DNA from: an uncultured Clostridia bacterium
GTDB taxonomy: Bacteria; Bacillota; Clostridia; TANB77; CAG-508
Assembly (NCBI GenBank): GCA_934167165.1
Contig: CAKPKG010000001.1
Span: forward strand, 29,282-93,281
Direction: 5' to 3'
DNA: 64,000 bases
In this document: one piece after another, positions 5,121 to 9,313 of the stretch
Position numbering within the stretch: position 1 is the stretch's first letter
How the letters are laid out: every line of letters begins with the position of its first letter
Notes under the pieces: model-generated
What the model saw: only the letters and a program-made list of their open reading frames with translations
What the model was told of the DNA's origin: nothing
The model's database searches: none
Made by a program: the position numbers and the translations under genes

Positions 5121-5965
5121 GTCAATGGGGACGGAGTTTTTTGACAATTTTATTTAATATATATTTTTCTTATCGTTTCTCTTCCCATTCTAAGTTTTTC
5201 TGATATTTTTCTTAATGAAATATTATATTCTGTTTTTAAAATTGTTATAAGTTCTTTTAATTTAATTTTATCTTTTTTTAAATCATCAAGTATAATATTA
5301 TTTTCTATTAAGAATTCTTCTATAAACTTTTCACACTTTGCCTTATCCTCATCAATATCCATAAATACATAGTTTTCTTTTGGTTGTTTATCTATTCTCC
5401 TATAATTTGAGTATAAGTATTCTTCTGGCCGCTTACATATTCCTGCTTTTACTGGATTATCATAAATATATTTTATGCAATTATATAAATGTTCTTCACT
5501 ATAAATTCCCTCCGATTTATATCTATCTCTAAATACATATCCTACTCTGGAATATTTTTTATTATAATATTTTGCATATATTGTATTAAGTCTTTGCATA
5601 TATTTACTTAGATTATTTATTTTATCAGTTTCTATTAAAATATGTGCATGATTATTCATAATGCAGTATGCTACTATTTTTATTTTACATTGTTCATTTA
5701 ATTTATACATTACTTTTATATAATATTTTATATCCTCCGGATTTTGGAATATATAACTCCTATTAATTCCTTGAGTTATTACATGAAAAGCTGTTGTTTT
5801 TATATAGTTTCTTGGAAATCTCGGCATATTTGCCTCCTTAGAAATAAATAATTTATAGAAAAAAATAATATGATATAAATCATACCATATTATTTTAAAA
5901 TATTTGTCGAAATTTATCTATCATTCCATTTTTTATGTTGTCAAAAAACTCCGTCCCCATTGACA
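5121..5965 (-). mobile_element. IS200/IS605-family (RAYT-like) element, copy 1
   Basis: Subterminal hairpin ends tgtcaatggggacggagttttttgacaa and its reverse complement. Single Y1/HUH transposase gene. Confidence 0.75.
5150..5827 (-). CDS. tnpA: Y1 HUH transposase (IS200-like / REP-associated tyrosine transposase)
   Basis: HAHIL HUH motif and catalytic Tyr region YNCIKYIYDNP. 225 aa. Uses an in-frame CGG(C) Arg codon. Confidence 0.75.
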   Translation of the reverse strand: MPRFPRNYIKTTAFHVITQGINRSYIFQNPEDIKYYIKVMYKLNEQCKIKIVAYCIMNNHAHILIETDKINNLSKYMQRLNTIYAKYYNKKYSRVGYVFRDRYKSEGIYSEEHLYNCIKYIYDNPVKAGICKRPEEYLYSNYRRIDKQPKENYVFMDIDEDKAKCEKFIEEFLIENNIILDDLKKDKIKLKELITILKTEYNISLRKISEKLRMGRETIRKIYIK

Positions 5966-6052
5966 TTTTTTATAAAATATGTGGCTAAAAAATGTAGAAT
6001 ATAGTATAATTTTGTCAGTTTAAATTAAATCTAATCTAATAAGGAGAAACAC

Positions 6053-7315
6053 ATGAAACAAAAAATAAGTAATAAAAGTGTAATGTCAGTACTTTTATTT
6101 GTATTACCATATATAATAGTAGAATTTACAAATATAATACTAATAACAATTGACAGATCATTATCTAATTCTATTGGTACAACTGCAATTGTAGTATTTG
6201 CTTCACTTATAAGCTTGGACTCTGCAATCAATACAATACAAGAATGTATATCACAATCACATAGTATTGTACTATCAAGAGATAGAAAAAATAATAATAG
6301 CATTAATACTGTAGCTATTTTTTTACAAATTTTTAGTAGTATGATTATATCTTTGATAATATTTATATTTGCTAATAAACTAACTTATATTTATACTTTA
6401 GAAAATGACGCCAGAAATATTTTAACATGTTTATTAAAATTAAAAGCAATTCAGTTACCAATTTTAGCAATAAGTTATATTCCAAAAAATGATTTAAAGG
6501 TAAAAGGGAAAACAAATCTTGTACTAATTGCAACAGTTATATCTTCATTATTTAATATTCTTGGAGATATAATAAGTATTAAATTAGGATTTAATGAAGT
6601 TGGAATATATGTAGCTACAATCATATCTACACTTATAAATACGATTTTATTATTTATATTTTCGAAATATAAATATAGAAAAATAAAAATGGTATATATA
6701 AAAGATATAATTAATCATGCTAAAGATTTATTATTTAATAAAGCAATTCAAAAATTTGCATACATTTTTCTTGAGAGCATATCAAGTTCTTTCGGCACTA
6801 ATGTTTATGTTATAGTATGTGTATGTTCTGCTGTTGTACAAGTATTATTACAATTAGCAGAAGGATACTATACAGGGCTTTTAGTTTCTTATGCAAATTC
6901 TATAGAAAATGAAGAAAATAACCTATTAACAAAAGTAAATAAAATTACAATTTACTCTTTAATATTTTCACTAATATTTTTTATTATTATTCCATATCCA
7001 GCTTGGTATTTTTTAGGAAGAAGTGTTCCTTGGAGCGAATGTGGTATATATGTTTATTTATATTCAACTGAATTTTTTACGTATATACTTAATAATAACT
7101 ATTTAGCATATTTATCTGCTAATAAAGATACAAAAGCTATTAGATTAACTTCATTTATTGGTGGTATATGTATAAGAATACCATTACTTTGTCTAATAAA
7201 ATATTTTAATATTGGACTTGTTGGCTTAGGATTAGTTTGCACTGTTGATAGGCTTGTTAGAACTATATATTTAAAATCTTATATTAAAAATAATAAAAAT
7301 CTATATAAAGATTAA
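6053..7315 (+). CDS. MATE/MOP-superfamily polytopic membrane transporter or flippase
   Basis: 420 aa, about 12 TM segments. Confidence 0.4.
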   Translation: MKQKISNKSVMSVLLFVLPYIIVEFTNIILITIDRSLSNSIGTTAIVVFASLISLDSAINTIQECISQSHSIVLSRDRKNNNSINTVAIFLQIFSSMIISLIIFIFANKLTYIYTLENDARNILTCLLKLKAIQLPILAISYIPKNDLKVKGKTNLVLIATVISSLFNILGDIISIKLGFNEVGIYVATIISTLINTILLFIFSKYKYRKIKMVYIKDIINHAKDLLFNKAIQKFAYIFLESISSSFGTNVYVIVCVCSAVVQVLLQLAEGYYTGLLVSYANSIENEENNLLTKVNKITIYSLIFSLIFFIIIPYPAWYFLGRSVPWSECGIYVYLYSTEFFTYILNNNYLAYLSANKDTKAIRLTSFIGGICIRIPLLCLIKYFNIGLVGLGLVCTVDRLVRTIYLKSYIKNNKNLYKD

Positions 7316-7404
7316 AACAAATTTTCGTAAATATATTGTCAACTTTTTAATATTATTGTAATATTGATGAAAATGGAATTGAATTTTGGTATGCTAGAGA
7401 ACTT

Positions 7405-8139
7405 ATGACTTGTCTTAATTATAGTAAATGGAGCAATTTTAAAAAAGTCATTTCTAAAGCTATAAAGTCTTGTGAAAATAGTGATATATCAGTTTTTGAC
7501 CATTTTGCCGACGTCGGTAAAATGGTGCAAATAGGTTCTGATGCACAAAGGGAGCAAAAGGATTATAAATTAACTCGTTATGCTTGTTATTTAATAACAC
7601 AAAATGGAGATAGTAGGAAAAAAGTAATTGCTTTAGCACAAACATACTTTGCAGTACAAACAAGAAAACAGGAAATAACTGAAAAAGAATATAGTTCATT
7701 AACAGAAGATGAAAAAAGATTTTATCAAAGAAATTTAACTAAAAAAGGAAATTATTCACTTAATCAAACTGCTAAAAAAGCTGGAGTTAAAAATTTTGAT
7801 AGATTTCACAATTCAGGCTATAAAGGTTTATATAATGGAGAAACAGCTGATGATATTGCAAAACGAAAAGGGTTAAGATATAGAGAAGATATTTTAGATA
7901 ATATGGGAAGTGATGAACTAATTGCTAATTTGTTTAGAATTTCACAAACTGAGCAAAAATTAAAGAAAGATAATATACAAACAGAAAAAGAAGCTAATGA
8001 AACTCATCATAATATTGGAAAAAACATAAGAGAGGTAATTGCTAAAAATGGTGGAACTATGCCAGAAGATTTGCCAACACCTAAAAAGAGTTTAAAACAA
8101 CTTGAAAAGGAAAATAAAAAAAGTTTAAAAAAGCAATAA
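7405..8139 (+). CDS. dinD: DNA-damage-inducible protein D (DinD/Bro-N-like), N-terminally truncated or with a non-ATG start near 7351
   Basis: (W)YARELMTCLNYSKWSNFKKVI...YACYLITQNGDSRKKVIALAQTYFA matches DinD. The frame is open upstream to 7351 without an ATG. Confidence 0.6.
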   Translation: MTCLNYSKWSNFKKVISKAIKSCENSDISVFDHFADVGKMVQIGSDAQREQKDYKLTRYACYLITQNGDSRKKVIALAQTYFAVQTRKQEITEKEYSSLTEDEKRFYQRNLTKKGNYSLNQTAKKAGVKNFDRFHNSGYKGLYNGETADDIAKRKGLRYREDILDNMGSDELIANLFRISQTEQKLKKDNIQTEKEANETHHNIGKNIREVIAKNGGTMPEDLPTPKKSLKQLEKENKKSLKKQ

Positions 8140-8224
8140 TTATGTATATAATTATTATTTCTTAAACTTTTTCATAAATATCGCTATAATTTTGTTGCAA
8201 TTTATAAAAATTATGATATACTTT

Positions 8225-8350
8225 GATAAATTGATTGATATTTGTATCAATCGTCACGAGAGCCGAAAAAAGTTGTAGATAACTACGCCAACGGCTCCAT
8301 AAGGTAAAATCGTCGCACCAGACGAAAAATTTAATCGACTGTAAAAGGTC
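8225..8350 (+). promoter_or_regulatory. promoter plus structured leader with perfect palindrome gattgatatttgtatcaatc and a terminator-like hairpin
   Basis: TTGCAA ... TGaTATACT promoter. A GC-rich roughly 110-nt leader ends in cgactgtaaaaggtcg plus T7. Confidence 0.35.
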
Positions 8351-8476
8351 GATTTTTTTGTCGCTTTTTATTGAAAATGAAAGGATGGTGTGATATGATA
8401 AGTGTATTAAAGATTCCAAACAAGATAAGAAGAGATTTACTCTCAAAAATTGAATGGGCTTGCAAATTTAGTTCTG

Positions 8477-9313
8477 GTCAATGGGGACGGAGTTTTTTGA
8501 CAACCTTATTCAAGATATACCTTTCTTATTGTTTCTCTTCCCATTCTAAGTTTTTCTGATATGAAATATTATATTCAGTTTTTAAAACTATTATAAGCTC
8601 TTTTAATTTACTTTTATCTTTTTTTAAATCATCAAGTATAATATTGTTTTTTATTAAGAATTCTTCTATAACATTTTCACATTCTGCCTTATCTTCATCA
8701 ATATCCATAAATACATATTTTTCTTTTAATTGTTTATCTATTCTCCTATAATTTGAGTATAGATACTCTTCTGGTCGCTTACATATTCCTGCTTTTACTG
8801 GATTATCATAAATATATTTTATGCAATTATATAAGTGTTCTTCACTATAAATTCCCTCCGATTTATATCTATCTCTAAATACATATCCTACTCTGGAATA
8901 TTTTTTATTATAATATTTTGCATATATTGTATTAAGTCTTTGCATATATTTACTTAGATTATTTATTTTATCAGTTTCTATTAAAATATGTGCATGATTA
9001 TTCATAATGCAGTATGCTAGTATTTTAATTTTACATTGTTCATTTAATTTATACATTACTTTTATATAATATTTTATGTCCTCCGGATTTTCGAATATAT
9101 AACTTCTATTAATTCCTTGAGTTATTACATGAAAAGCTGTTGTTTTTATATAGTTTCTTGGAAATCTAGGCATATTTGCCTCCTTAGAAATAAATAATTT
9201 ATAGAAAAAAATAATATGATATAAATTATACCATATTATTTTAAAATATTTGTCGAAATTTATCTATCATTTCATTTTTTTTATGTTGTCAAAATTCCCC
9301 GTCCCCATTGACA
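8477..9313 (-). mobile_element. IS200/IS605-family (RAYT-like) element, copy 2
   Basis: Same hairpin ends as copy 1 and about 97 percent identical. Inserted into an ORF without target duplication. Confidence 0.75.
8526..9173 (-). CDS. tnpA: Y1 HUH transposase, copy 2 (C-terminal frameshift from a small deletion)
   Basis: Identical to copy 1 over about 190 aa. The tail diverges after an 11-nt deletion. Confidence 0.7.
   Translation of the reverse strand: MPRFPRNYIKTTAFHVITQGINRSYIFENPEDIKYYIKVMYKLNEQCKIKILAYCIMNNHAHILIETDKINNLSKYMQRLNTIYAKYYNKKYSRVGYVFRDRYKSEGIYSEEHLYNCIKYIYDNPVKAGICKRPEEYLYSNYRRIDKQLKEKYVFMDIDEDKAECENVIEEFLIKNNIILDDLKKDKSKLKELIIVLKTEYNISYQKNLEWEEKQ

What the first reader, a model, noticed from the sequence alone, without database searches (positions are those of the whole stretch)
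5121..9313. Two copies of an IS200/RAYT-like HUH element with hairpin ends, plus solo REP-like hairpins elsewhere
The elements at 5121..5965 and 8477..9313 are about 97 percent identical. Each encodes a single 225-aa Y1 HUH transposase (HAHIL motif; Tyr in YNCIKYIYDNP) and ends in the subterminal hairpin tgtcaatggggacggagttttttgacaa. Solo related hairpins are at 203..229 (beside the tRNA) and 33618..33652. A second palindromic family with the same GGGGAC core (caaaaggggtctgtccccatttg) sits after purA (31955..32016), in the 45395..45590 block, and between pflB and pflA (61768..61796). This looks like a RAYT and REP system. RAYT/REP systems have been described mainly in Proteobacteria, so a clostridial example with active-looking copies would be unusual.
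Basis: partly seen in the sequence, partly recalled or inferred. Interest (0 to 1): 0.55.

Follow-up and report, generated by a model that had tools for sequence, protein, structure and literature searches.

The report
RAYT-like transposon with hairpin inverted repeats
Two copies of a small (~845 bp) mobile element from an uncultured gut Clostridia bacterium encode a RAYT-like tyrosine (HUH) transposase between hairpin-forming terminal inverted repeats; this kind of element ("TIRtron/TIRYT") was described in 2013, so it is a well-documented new member and not a new system.

Summary
The elements lie at 5120..5965 and 8476..9313 and are about 94-95% identical, not 97%. Only copy 1 encodes the full 225-aa protein. 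A 10-bp deletion in copy 2 removes the C-terminal helix-turn-helix.

The "subterminal hairpins" are 28-bp terminal inverted repeats (TIRs). Across about 35 homologous loci each TIR is a hairpin with a covarying stem and a conserved TGGGGAC[G/A]G loop.

The protein is closer to E. coli TnpA-REP (RAYT) than to IS200 TnpA. With its TIRs, GGGGWSAS-like motif and C-terminal HTH, it matches the TIRYT/TIRtron class (Di Nocera 2013; subclass 2.1 of Quentin 2018). RAYT Group 1 was already reported in Clostridia (Bertels 2017).

The solo hairpin at 202..229 is the remnant of an element that is still present in another strain. The second family (GGGGACAGACCCC) is a dispersed singlet/doublet repeat with 34 units on 18 unrelated contigs of one gut sample. 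The same core flanks TIRYT genes in Treponema.

Strain comparisons show rearrangements whose breakpoints fall exactly at TIR ends, which suggests recent activity.

Verdict: a new member of a known kind, of modest interest.

The parts
5120..5965 (-). Copy 1: complete 846-bp TIRtron (TIR, about 110-bp promoter region, TIRYT gene, TIR).
   Evidence: The same element occurs in strains L001-L009.
5150..5827 (-). TIRYT gene, 225 aa. It carries a Y1 HUH core (H15, H60-A-H62, Y120, N124-P125) and a C-terminal HTH (about residues 185-225).
5120..5147 (+). TIR next to the gene's 3' end. It forms the hairpin TGTCAA-TGGGGACGGAGTTTT-TTGACA, with the loop motif on the + strand.
5938..5965 (-). TIR upstream of the gene. 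It is the perfect reverse complement of 5120..5147, with the loop motif on the - strand.
   Evidence: I13: 100% complementary.
8476..9313 (-). Copy 2: 838-bp degenerate TIRtron. Its TIRs at 8476..8503 and 9286..9313 carry 1 and 3 mismatches.
8526..9173 (-). Copy 2 gene, 215 aa. A 10-bp deletion shifts the frame and removes the C-terminal HTH, so the protein is probably defective.
5966..8475 (.). A 2.5-kb segment held between the two direct copies. It carries a 420-aa membrane protein gene, a 244-aa Bro-N-like gene and a truncated 35-codon ORF. It is absent from strains L002, L004, L005 and L006.
9314..9771 (+). A 5'-truncated lipoprotein gene joined directly to the end of copy 2. It is intact in L006 (MKKCITT...LSGC).
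202..229 (-). Solo TIR (TGCCAATGGGGACGTGGAATTTTGACAC). It lies exactly where strain L012 has the TIR of an internally deleted element.
   Evidence: (D11).
33618..33652 (+). Solo hairpin of another TIR subtype, TGCCAAAA-GGGACGGGGAA-TTTTGGCA. It is nearly identical to the TIRs of the Clostridium sp. CAG:452 element (L035) and has a partial outer duplication, GTGCCAA. It starts right after a stop codon.
31955..32016 (.). Family-2 inverted doublet (REPIN-like), 5 nt after the purA stop codon. As single-stranded DNA it folds at -30.8 kcal/mol.
   Evidence: (I12).
61768..61796 (-). Family-2 singlet, GAACAAA-TGGGGACAGACCCCT-TTTGTTC, between pflB and pflA. Strain L165 has a doublet at this site.
45531..45577 (.). 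Diverged family-2-like doublet (AGGACAGTCCCCTTTTGT / ACAAAAGAGGGACAGTCCCT).
45427..45498 (+). Two GTAG-headed palindromes, GTAGGGGCGTATTGCATACGCCC and GTAGGGGCAGGCCCTGTGTCTGCCC. They belong to other dispersed repeat families and sit in a BIME-like mosaic.

Best explanation
What it is. These are two copies of a TIRtron, an element of about 845 bp made of one gene for a TIR-associated tyrosine transposase (TIRYT). TIRYTs are the RAYT-like class 2 branch of Y1 HUH enzymes and carry a C-terminal HTH. The gene sits between 28-bp terminal inverted repeats.

Likely mechanism (inferred from IS608 and TnpA-REP biochemistry, not shown here).
- On single-stranded DNA, for example at a replication fork, each TIR folds into a hairpin whose stem may vary in sequence and whose loop TGGGGAC(G/A)G is read by the enzyme.
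- Because the ends are inverted, the recognised form lies on the top strand at one end and on the bottom strand at the other. This is the arrangement of RAYT genes flanked by inverted REPs, and it differs from IS200/IS605.
- Tyr120, together with the H60-x-H62 metal site, cuts at the foot of the hairpin and rejoins the DNA.

What the sequences show.
- Copy 1 is intact. Copy 2 has lost its HTH.
- Cutting and rejoining at the ends, together with homologous recombination between copies, have produced deletions adjacent to the ends, partial end duplications, a 2.5-kb segment held between two direct copies, and solo TIR remnants.
- Related hairpins are spread through intergenic DNA as singlets and inverted doublets: the family-2 GGGGACAGACCCC repeat and a CAG:452-type solo hairpin. 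They are most likely non-autonomous TIR derivatives mobilised or remodelled by this or a paralogous TIRYT.
For: Protein class.
- Pfam Y1_Tnp scores 47 bits.
- NCBIfam REP_Tyr_transpos scores 78.8 bits against 23.3 for IS200.
- A profile search of the PDB gives 4ER8 TnpA-REP at E=7.8e-7 against 0.17 for ISDra2 TnpA.
- 4ER8 is the top hit for the AF2 model in Foldseek, E=2.8e-5.
- H15, HxH, Y120 and NP are invariant in 34 homologues.
- The C-terminal helical bundle has pLDDT 75-89, and homologues give HTH_11/23/38/Sigma70_r4 hits.

Ends.
- The 28-bp TIR is perfect.
- About 35 of 40 homologues with 37-96% protein identity have TIRs in the same geometry.
- The stems covary (TGTCAA, GTGCCAA, GGTCA, GAGACAA, GGAACG, GTCCCCA) while the loop is conserved. 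The covariation score is 0.314 against 0.144 for shuffles (0 of 500 reach it) and 0.10-0.16 for slid partners.

Signs of activity.
- In strains of the same species, the TIR end ...CCCCATTGACA| is joined to four different points of the neighbouring lipoprotein gene.
- L002, L005 and L006 carry a hybrid of copy 1 and copy 2, which indicates recombination between the copies.
- L012 has a full element at window position 1244/1245 and a deleted element at the site of the solo TIR.
- Partial outer duplications such as TGTCAATGG|TGTCAATGGGG recur in many loci.

Derivatives.
- Inverted doublets without a gene occur near homologues.
- The family-2 scan returned 75 loci holding 118 units. One sample has 34 units on 18 non-homologous contigs, often at contig ends.
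- A singlet/doublet polymorphism exists at the pflB-pflA site.
- GGGGACAGACCCC units flank TIRYT genes in three independent Treponema loci.

Literature. TIRtron/TIRYT and the GGGGWSAS motif are described in PMC3733652, subclass 2.1 with a C-terminal HTH in PMC6006769, and RAYT Group 1 in Clostridia in PMC5581495.
Against: - No biochemical data exist for any TIRYT, so the single-strand, hairpin and cleavage steps are all inferred.
- The TIR hairpin is weak as free DNA: -2.8 kcal/mol, z = -2.3.
- No empty site or target duplication could be defined. Every polymorphism I found is a rearrangement, not a clean insertion.
- The TIR motif GGGGACGG matches GGGGWSAS at only 7 of 8 positions.
- REP_Tyr_transpos falls 1.2 bits below its cut-off.
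- The enzyme that acts on family 2 was not found in this window or in the Clostridia-like metagenome loci.
- MAGs usually show one copy per genome. That fits a largely immobile, vertically inherited gene, although assemblies tend to collapse repeats.
- The singlet/doublet change could result from palindrome slippage without any transposase.
Confidence: 0.8

Rival explanations
1. It is a true REPIN-RAYT type symbiosis. The Y1 gene would be a domesticated, essentially immobile host gene whose role is to spread and maintain the short hairpins (TIR-type and family 2) as non-autonomous REPIN-like populations. The two copies would be a local duplication and not the result of transposition.
For: - Most MAGs carry one copy.
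- In more diverged relatives the gene sits at a syntenic position beside the PrsW gene (L013).
- Singlets and inverted doublets are dispersed in intergenic DNA.
- The protein is closest to TnpA-REP.
Against: - The whole unit is bounded by perfect TIRs and occurs at different loci in different species, and at an additional site in L012.
- Two diverged copies, about 5% apart, lie 2.5 kb from each other.
- One solo TIR is a decayed element and not an independently moved hairpin.
- Hairpin abundance per genome is unknown. Bertels 2017 found only about 12 flanking-16mer occurrences for RAYT Group 1.
Confidence: 0.12
2. It is an ordinary IS200/IS605-family insertion sequence, moving by single-strand peel-and-paste with different left and right subterminal hairpins on one strand.
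For: It has a Y1_Tnp domain, a small size and a single ORF.
Against: - The IS200 HMM scores 23.3 bits against a cut-off of 55.
- The ends are perfect 28-bp inverted repeats, so the recognised loop lies on opposite strands at the two ends.
- The protein carries an extra C-terminal HTH that IS200 TnpA lacks.
Confidence: 0.03
3. The short GC-rich palindromes (family 2 and the solo hairpins) are host terminators or regulatory hairpins unrelated to the transposase, and the shared GGGGAC core is a coincidence.
For: All of them are intergenic and lie just downstream of genes. The family-2 unit has a GGGG/CCCC stem followed by TTTTG.
Against: - A 23-mer is identical at three sites, and a 21-mer is found at 75 metagenome loci with unrelated flanks.
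- The terminator scan found no site at the doublet.
- The same core flanks TIRYT genes in inverted orientation.
- The solo at 202..229 is homologous to an element TIR.
- They may still act as terminators secondarily, as REPs do.
Confidence: 0.05

Closest known systems
TIRtron / TIRYT (Di Nocera, De Gregorio & Rocco 2013, PMC3733652), which corresponds to Y1 HuH subclass 2.1 (Quentin et al. 2018, PMC6006769)
   Same: The gene is RAYT-like and is flanked by long TIRs, not GTAG REPs. The TIRs lie at a fixed distance from the gene and carry a GGGGWSAS-type motif, and some are self-complementary or doubled. The protein has a C-terminal HTH. TIR repeats also occur as singles, dimers and groups elsewhere in the genome.
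   Different: The host is an uncultured low-GC gut Clostridia lineage. I found no mention of Firmicutes or Clostridia in the text of the 2013 paper. The TIR motif is GGGGACGG, a 7 of 8 match. New here are stem covariation showing that every TIR is a hairpin, and strain-level rearrangements whose breakpoints lie at the TIR ends.
E. coli TnpA-REP / RAYT with REP-BIME or REPIN (Nunvar 2010; Bertels & Rainey 2011; Ton-Hoang 2012; PDB 4ER8)
   Same: It is the closest solved relative. Both have a Y1 HUH enzyme gene flanked by inverted hairpins, and both have hairpin singlets and inverted doublets dispersed in intergenic DNA.
   Different: There is no GTAG tag on the TIR hairpins. The recognised sequence appears to be the loop, with the stem free to vary. 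This protein has an extra HTH domain. The gene is duplicated and the whole unit looks mobile. Copy numbers of the hairpins appear modest.
IS200/IS605 (IS608, ISDra2) TnpA
   Same: The HUH/Y1 catalytic fold is shared, and hairpin recognition on single-stranded DNA is the likely chemistry in both.
   Different: The IS200 HMM score is far below its cut-off. IS200/IS605 elements have no TIRs, and their two different hairpins lie on the same strand.
RAYT Group 1 (Bertels, Gallie & Rainey 2017, PMC5581495)
   Same: It is described as the most IS-like RAYT group: it has the most duplicates and some plasmid copies, it is found across 21 bacterial classes including Clostridia, and its flanking 16-mers are only moderately repeated.

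Membership tests
TIRYT / TIRtron (subclass 2.1) | Y1 HUH protein homologous to RAYT/TnpA-REP and not to IS200 TnpA | tested here: met
   REP_Tyr_transpos 78.8 bits against IS200 23.3. 4ER8 E=7.8e-7 against ISDra2 0.17. Foldseek top hit is 4ER8.
TIRYT / TIRtron (subclass 2.1) | Gene flanked by long terminal inverted repeats instead of GTAG REPs | tested here: met
   Perfect 28-bp TIR in copy 1. TIRs are present in about 35 of 40 homologous loci.
TIRYT / TIRtron (subclass 2.1) | GGGGWSAS motif in the TIR | tested here: inconclusive
   The TIR has GGGGACGG, a 7 of 8 match. Family-2 hairpins and several relatives (L047-L049) have GGG(G)ACAG/GGGGACAC, which match exactly.
TIRYT / TIRtron (subclass 2.1) | C-terminal helix-turn-helix extension | tested here: met
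   ISLRKISEKLRMGRETIRKIY is conserved. HTH_11/23/38/Sigma70_r4 hits occur in homologues. The AF2 model has helices 160-224 at pLDDT 75-89. The query alone gives only HTH_11 at E=0.088.
RAYT / REPIN system | NCBIfam REP_Tyr_transpos equivalog above its cut-off | tested here: not met
   78.8 bits against a cut-off of 80; relatives score 56-73 bits. This is a narrow miss.
RAYT / REPIN system | Flanking hairpins carry a 5' GTAG tag | tested here: not met
   The TIR hairpins start TGTCAA with no GTAG. GTAG-headed palindromes do exist elsewhere, at 45427 and 45474, but they are not next to the gene.
RAYT / REPIN system | Single-copy, vertically inherited gene | tested here: inconclusive
   There are two copies in this window and two in L012. 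Most MAGs show one copy, and MAGs tend to collapse repeats.
RAYT / REPIN system | Cognate hairpins highly abundant genome-wide (tens to hundreds) | tested here: inconclusive
   The window holds 2 solo TIR-type hairpins and 3 exact family-2 units plus a diverged doublet (2 units at 45531..45577) in 64 kb. One metagenome sample has 34 family-2 units on 18 contigs. No complete genome of the host was available.
IS200/IS605 | TnpA-IS200 HMM above its cut-off | tested here: not met
   23.3 bits against a cut-off of 55.
IS200/IS605 | No TIRs; distinct left and right subterminal hairpins on the same strand | tested here: not met
   The ends are perfect inverted repeats.
IS200/IS605 | Insertion 3' of a fixed tetra- or pentanucleotide without target duplication | tested here: inconclusive
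   The bases next to eight ends show no common motif. No clean empty site was found.
RAYT Group 1 (Bertels 2017) | Clusters with Group 1 in their protein similarity network | not tested
The assignment is suggested only by the traits they describe (PMC5581495).

The most novel reading that the evidence does not exclude
This uncultured gut Clostridia lineage carries a currently active, multi-family REP/REPIN-like landscape, which has so far been documented mostly outside Firmicutes. Its parts would be TIRYT-driven hairpins with GGGGAC loops (TIR type, CAG:452 type, and GGGGACAGACCCC singlets and doublets) together with GTAG-headed palindromes in BIME-like mosaics. The TIRYT would cut at the hairpin feet in vivo and so generate adjacent deletions, singlet/doublet conversions, and composite structures of two copies plus cargo that can carry host genes. 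That would provide a natural system, polymorphic within a population, for working out the still unknown TIRYT mechanism.
Probability: 0.3. Interest if true: 0.55.

Novelty: new member of a known kind. Interest (0 to 1): 0.3.

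Why it matters
TIRYTs are a large branch of HUH tyrosine enzymes: subclass 2.1 occurs in about 15% of strains (Quentin 2018). The papers I read report no biochemistry for them, and their status as mobile or domesticated is unclear. This locus contributes three things.

- Comparative evidence that TIRYT inverted repeats are structure-conserved hairpins with a conserved loop. 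That points to single-strand recognition like that of RAYT and IS608.
- Natural strain variants whose breakpoints sit exactly at the hairpin feet. These give candidate cleavage sites to test.
- An example in low-GC gut Clostridia where several short palindromic repeat families coexist.

It does not change the current picture of these elements. It is mainly useful for annotation, since such genes are labelled only 'transposase', and as a starting point for experiments.

Tried and rejected
- **IS200 membership:** rejected.
- **Rfam scan of the whole window:** only the tRNA was found. No known RNA family covers the hairpins or the other repeats.
- **Terminator scan at the purA doublet:** no site found.
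- **Cognate Y1 gene for family 2:** among the 75 metagenome loci, only two hits turned up (L151 and L086, the same locus). They proved to be Treponema, not the Clostridia host, so the enzyme acting on family 2 in this genome remains unidentified.
- **Family-2 15-mer near window-type TIRYT genes:** absent from the 76 loci held at that time. Family 2 is therefore not generally linked to this TIRYT lineage.
- **Viral contig scan with the Treponema-type protein:** nothing found.
- **The one phage-collection homologue (MT835484):** it has no GGGAC hairpins and belongs to another lineage.
- **Plasmid collection:** only distant homologues (38% identity or less), annotated 'transposase'.
- **Target site or duplication:** I tried to define one from strain comparisons. 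Every variant was a rearrangement and none was a clean insertion.
- **Simple recombination between the two copies:** this explains the L002, L005 and L006 hybrids. It does not explain the different junction points in the lipoprotein gene or the copy-1-type end in L004.

Full report
**1. What is in the sequence**

The two repeats are real. Copy 1 spans 5120..5965 (846 bp) and copy 2 spans 8476..9313 (838 bp). They are direct repeats and both genes lie on the minus strand.

The copies differ at 51 of 850 aligned columns, including a 10-bp and a 2-bp indel. That is about 94-95% identity, not 97%.

Copy 1 encodes a 225-aa protein (5150..5827) with NNHAHILIE and LYNCIKYIYDNP. Copy 2 (8526..9173) encodes 215 aa, because the 10-bp deletion shifts the frame about 20 codons before the end.

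The 28-mer TGTCAATGGGGACGGAGTTTTTTGACAA bounds copy 1 as a perfect terminal inverted repeat. In copy 2 it carries 1 and 3 mismatches. Chance expectation in the window is 0 matches.

**2. The protein**

- Pfam reports only Y1_Tnp (47 bits).
- NCBIfam scores REP_Tyr_transpos at 78.8 bits (cut-off 80) and the IS200 model at 23.3 bits (cut-off 55).
- By sequence, the only solved relative is E. coli TnpA-REP, 4ER8. The single query gives E=0.15. A profile of 34 homologues gives 7.8e-7, against 0.17 for ISDra2 TnpA.
- An AlphaFold model (mean pLDDT 69) has the beta-alpha-beta-beta-alpha-beta HUH core and a confident C-terminal helical bundle, residues 160-224. Its best PDB match is again 4ER8, followed by IS608 and ISDra2 TnpA.
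- In the alignment of 34 homologues, H15, H60-x-H62, Y120 and N124-P125 are invariant. Most members end in an HTH-like ...ISLRKI(A/S)xxLxIxRETIRKIY. Several members hit HTH_11, HTH_23, HTH_38 or Sigma70_r4.
- Copy 2 has lost exactly this HTH.

**3. The ends are hairpins**

A scan of one genome per species found 67 loci. Nearly all are uncultured gut Clostridia MAGs from human (Hadza, Nepal), mouse, chicken, sheep, goat and rabbit, and they include Clostridium sp. CAG:452 and CAG:440. Most MAGs have one copy and four have two.

About 35 of the 40 loci with 37-96% protein identity have 25-35-bp inverted repeats in the same geometry. One lies about 110-140 bp upstream of the start codon and the other a few bases after the stop codon. 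The elements span 845-1200 bp.

Within each repeat the two arms pair, and the arm sequence changes between lineages: TGTCAA/TTGACA, GTGCCAA/TTGGCAC, GGTCA/TGACC, GAGACAA/TTGTCTC, GGAACG/CGTTCC, GTCCCCA/TGGGGAC. The loop keeps (T)GGGGAC(G/A)G, or GGTTCCGGG in a more distant clade.

I tested this on a gapless alignment of 30 distinct TIRs that were chosen by left-right complementarity, not by their own pairing.
- 70.8% of cells pair, against 59.5% in shuffles.
- The covariation score is 0.314, against 0.144 in shuffles (0 of 500 reach it) and 0.10-0.16 when the partner columns are slid.

As free DNA the hairpin is weak, at -2.8 kcal/mol. The conservation therefore argues for a protein-recognised structure and not for a thermodynamically dominant one.

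Some elements have two tandem hairpins per end (L036, L038, L044). Many have a 6-12-nt partial duplicate of the outer arm just outside the TIR, for example TGTCAATGG|TGTCAATGGGG.

**4. What is already known**

This combination was described by Di Nocera et al. 2013 as 'TIRtrons' encoding 'TIRYTs'. Their TIRs often share GGGGWSAS, may be self-complementary or doubled, and sometimes form moderately abundant families of single, dimeric or grouped repeats (PMC3733652).

Quentin et al. 2018 equate TIRYT with Y1 subclass 2.1, which is characterised by a C-terminal HTH. They found no classical REPs next to these genes (PMC6006769).

Bertels et al. [quoted passage not shown]

The element is therefore a new member of a known kind.

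**5. Evidence of recent rearrangement**

Metagenome contigs that encode the identical protein come from the same species (98-100% identical flanks) and fall into classes.
- L001, L003 and L007 (and, as far as their contigs reach, L008 and L009) look like the window.
- L002, L004, L005 and L006 have a single copy and lack 5966..8475.
- In these single-copy strains the end ...CCCCATTGACA| is joined to different points of the downstream lipoprotein gene.
  - L006 has the intact gene (MKKCITT...LSGC), preceded by a 9-nt end duplicate.
  - In L004 the junction lies inside the signal peptide, with a 22-nt end duplicate.
  - In the window, copy 2 is joined at GAACAACAAC, so 123 bp are missing.
  - In L002 and L005 the junction is at AAAAACAAAGAA, about 166 bp in.
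- The single copies of L002, L005 and L006 are copy-1-like for about 760 bp and copy-2-like at the last 40-90 bp. They arose by homologous recombination between the two copies.
- The varying junctions that start at the last TIR base need end-specific breakage and joining as well.

L012 has a flank 98.4% identical to window 220..1245. It carries a full element at window position 1244/1245. It also carries an internally deleted element whose TIR lies exactly where the window has the solo TIR 202..229. On the far side of both elements the sequence differs from the window. The solo TIR is therefore the remnant of an element. For a second time, two direct copies enclose a piece of host DNA.

I found no clean insertion with an empty site, so the target site and any target duplication remain undefined.

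**6. The other hairpins**

*33618..33652.* This hairpin matches the TIR subtype of the CAG:452 element (L035), with compensatory stem changes relative to the local TIR.

*Family 2.* The consensus is GAACAAA-TGGGGACAGACCCCT-TTTGTTC. It has the same stem and conserved-loop layout as the TIR, and its loop agrees with the TIR loop at 10 of the first 11 bases. It folds at -10.4 kcal/mol as a singlet and -30.8 kcal/mol as a doublet.
- The exact 21-mer occurs at 75 metagenome loci, which hold 118 units. There are 19 head-to-head doublets, 16 of them with 35-nt spacing.
- In one gut sample (OIZL01, GC 28%) there are 34 units on 18 contigs that share almost no other sequence. Many sit at contig ends, as expected for a dispersed repeat.
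- At the pflB-pflA site the window and five other strains have a singlet, while L165 has a doublet.
- The same core flanks TIRYT genes that are 34% identical to the window protein, in three independent Treponema loci. Two units lie upstream and one, inverted, lies downstream. GGGGACAGACCCC is therefore a bona fide TIRYT end.

The enzyme that acts on family 2 in the Clostridia host was not found. The resident TIRYT and a paralogue outside the window are both possible.

All of these hairpins are intergenic and lie close to gene ends.

*The 45395..45590 block.* It is a mosaic. It holds a diverged family-2 doublet and two GTAG-headed palindromes that recur in many of the metagenome loci. Di Nocera et al. 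listed GTAG repeats in Proteobacteria, Cyanobacteria, Chloroflexi and the PVC group only.

**7. Mechanism**

The following is shown here:
- an HUH/Y1 catalytic set;
- hairpin-forming TIRs with a conserved loop;
- loop motifs on opposite strands at the two ends;
- breakpoints at the TIR termini.

The following is inferred from IS608 and TnpA-REP:
- recognition of the folded hairpin on single-stranded DNA;
- cleavage at the hairpin foot by Tyr120 with a 5'-phosphotyrosine intermediate;
- strand transfer that produces excision, deletion, or duplication of end fragments.

The role of the HTH is unknown. It could tether the enzyme to double-stranded DNA or act in regulation.

**8. Verdict**

The locus holds a well-supported TIRtron/TIRYT pair, one intact and one decayed, in a gut Clostridia genome that also carries related short palindromic repeats. 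The kind is already known. The added value is the covariation evidence, the strain-level breakpoints, and the REPIN-like families in a low-GC Firmicute.

Noticed in passing
window 27971-28066 (-), 30571-30661 (+), 34070-34161 (+): A repeat family of about 92 nt (84-94% identity). It starts at a TATAAT-like box and ends in a variable terminator-like hairpin. One copy lies just upstream of purA. Copies also occur in unrelated metagenome contigs (L088, L105, L115, L123, L140). There is no Rfam match. It could be a small RNA or a leader.
   Followed up: partly
window 23659-23749 and 38242-38339: Palindromic repeats of about 91-98 nt rich in GTGTGA/GGTGAG (GAAGTGTGAAGTGTGAGGTGAGAAGTG...). They look MITE-like. 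A similar GAGGTGAGAGGTGGGATGTGGGAGGTGTGA tract opens the 45395 block.
   Followed up: no
window 45427-45450 and 45474-45498; also L087, L094, L098, L103, L133 and others: Two GTAG-headed palindrome families, GTAGGGGCGTATTGCATACGCCC and GTAGGGGCAGGCCCTGTGTCTGCCC, recur in about 30 gut metagenome loci. They resemble GTAG-tagged REPs, which Di Nocera 2013 did not list for Firmicutes. No associated RAYT was identified.
   Followed up: partly
L165 425-610 compared with window 61725-61870: A within-species polymorphism: the family-2 hairpin between pflB and pflA is a singlet in most strains and an inverted doublet (+35 bp) in one strain.
   Followed up: yes
window 9250-9771: A 173-aa ORF starts at a TTG inside the end of copy 2 and reads into the truncated lipoprotein gene. 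This hybrid ORF replaces the lost signal peptide with a hydrophobic stretch encoded by the element.
   Followed up: no
window 49932-51259: Three tandem repeats of about 516-519 bp (82-97% identity). They are probably repeated domains inside a coding region.
   Followed up: no
window 21457-21524 / 44676-44743 and 21597-21653 / 45019-45075; also L012 about 6440-6500: A repeated promoter-like module (TTGTCAAAAAGTATTTACAAAA ... TATAATAAAAATAGGAAATGGAGA) is found at two places in the window and in a related strain.
   Followed up: no
L010 5378-5408: A solo hairpin, TGTGTCAA-TGGGGACAGAGAATT-TTGACACA, has a loop intermediate between the TIR type (GGGGACGGAG) and family 2 (GGGGACAGAC). This hints at a continuum between the hairpin families.
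   Followed up: no
L051, L056-L059, L065, L072 (Campylobacterales MAGs): Distant homologues (about 35-45% identity, 256-269 aa, with a C-terminal HTH) are also bounded by TIRs of about 26-33 bp, but of an unrelated sequence: ACCCCTGTGAGTGAATCTCCACTTTT in most of them, with different TIR sequences in L058/L059 and L072.
   Followed up: no
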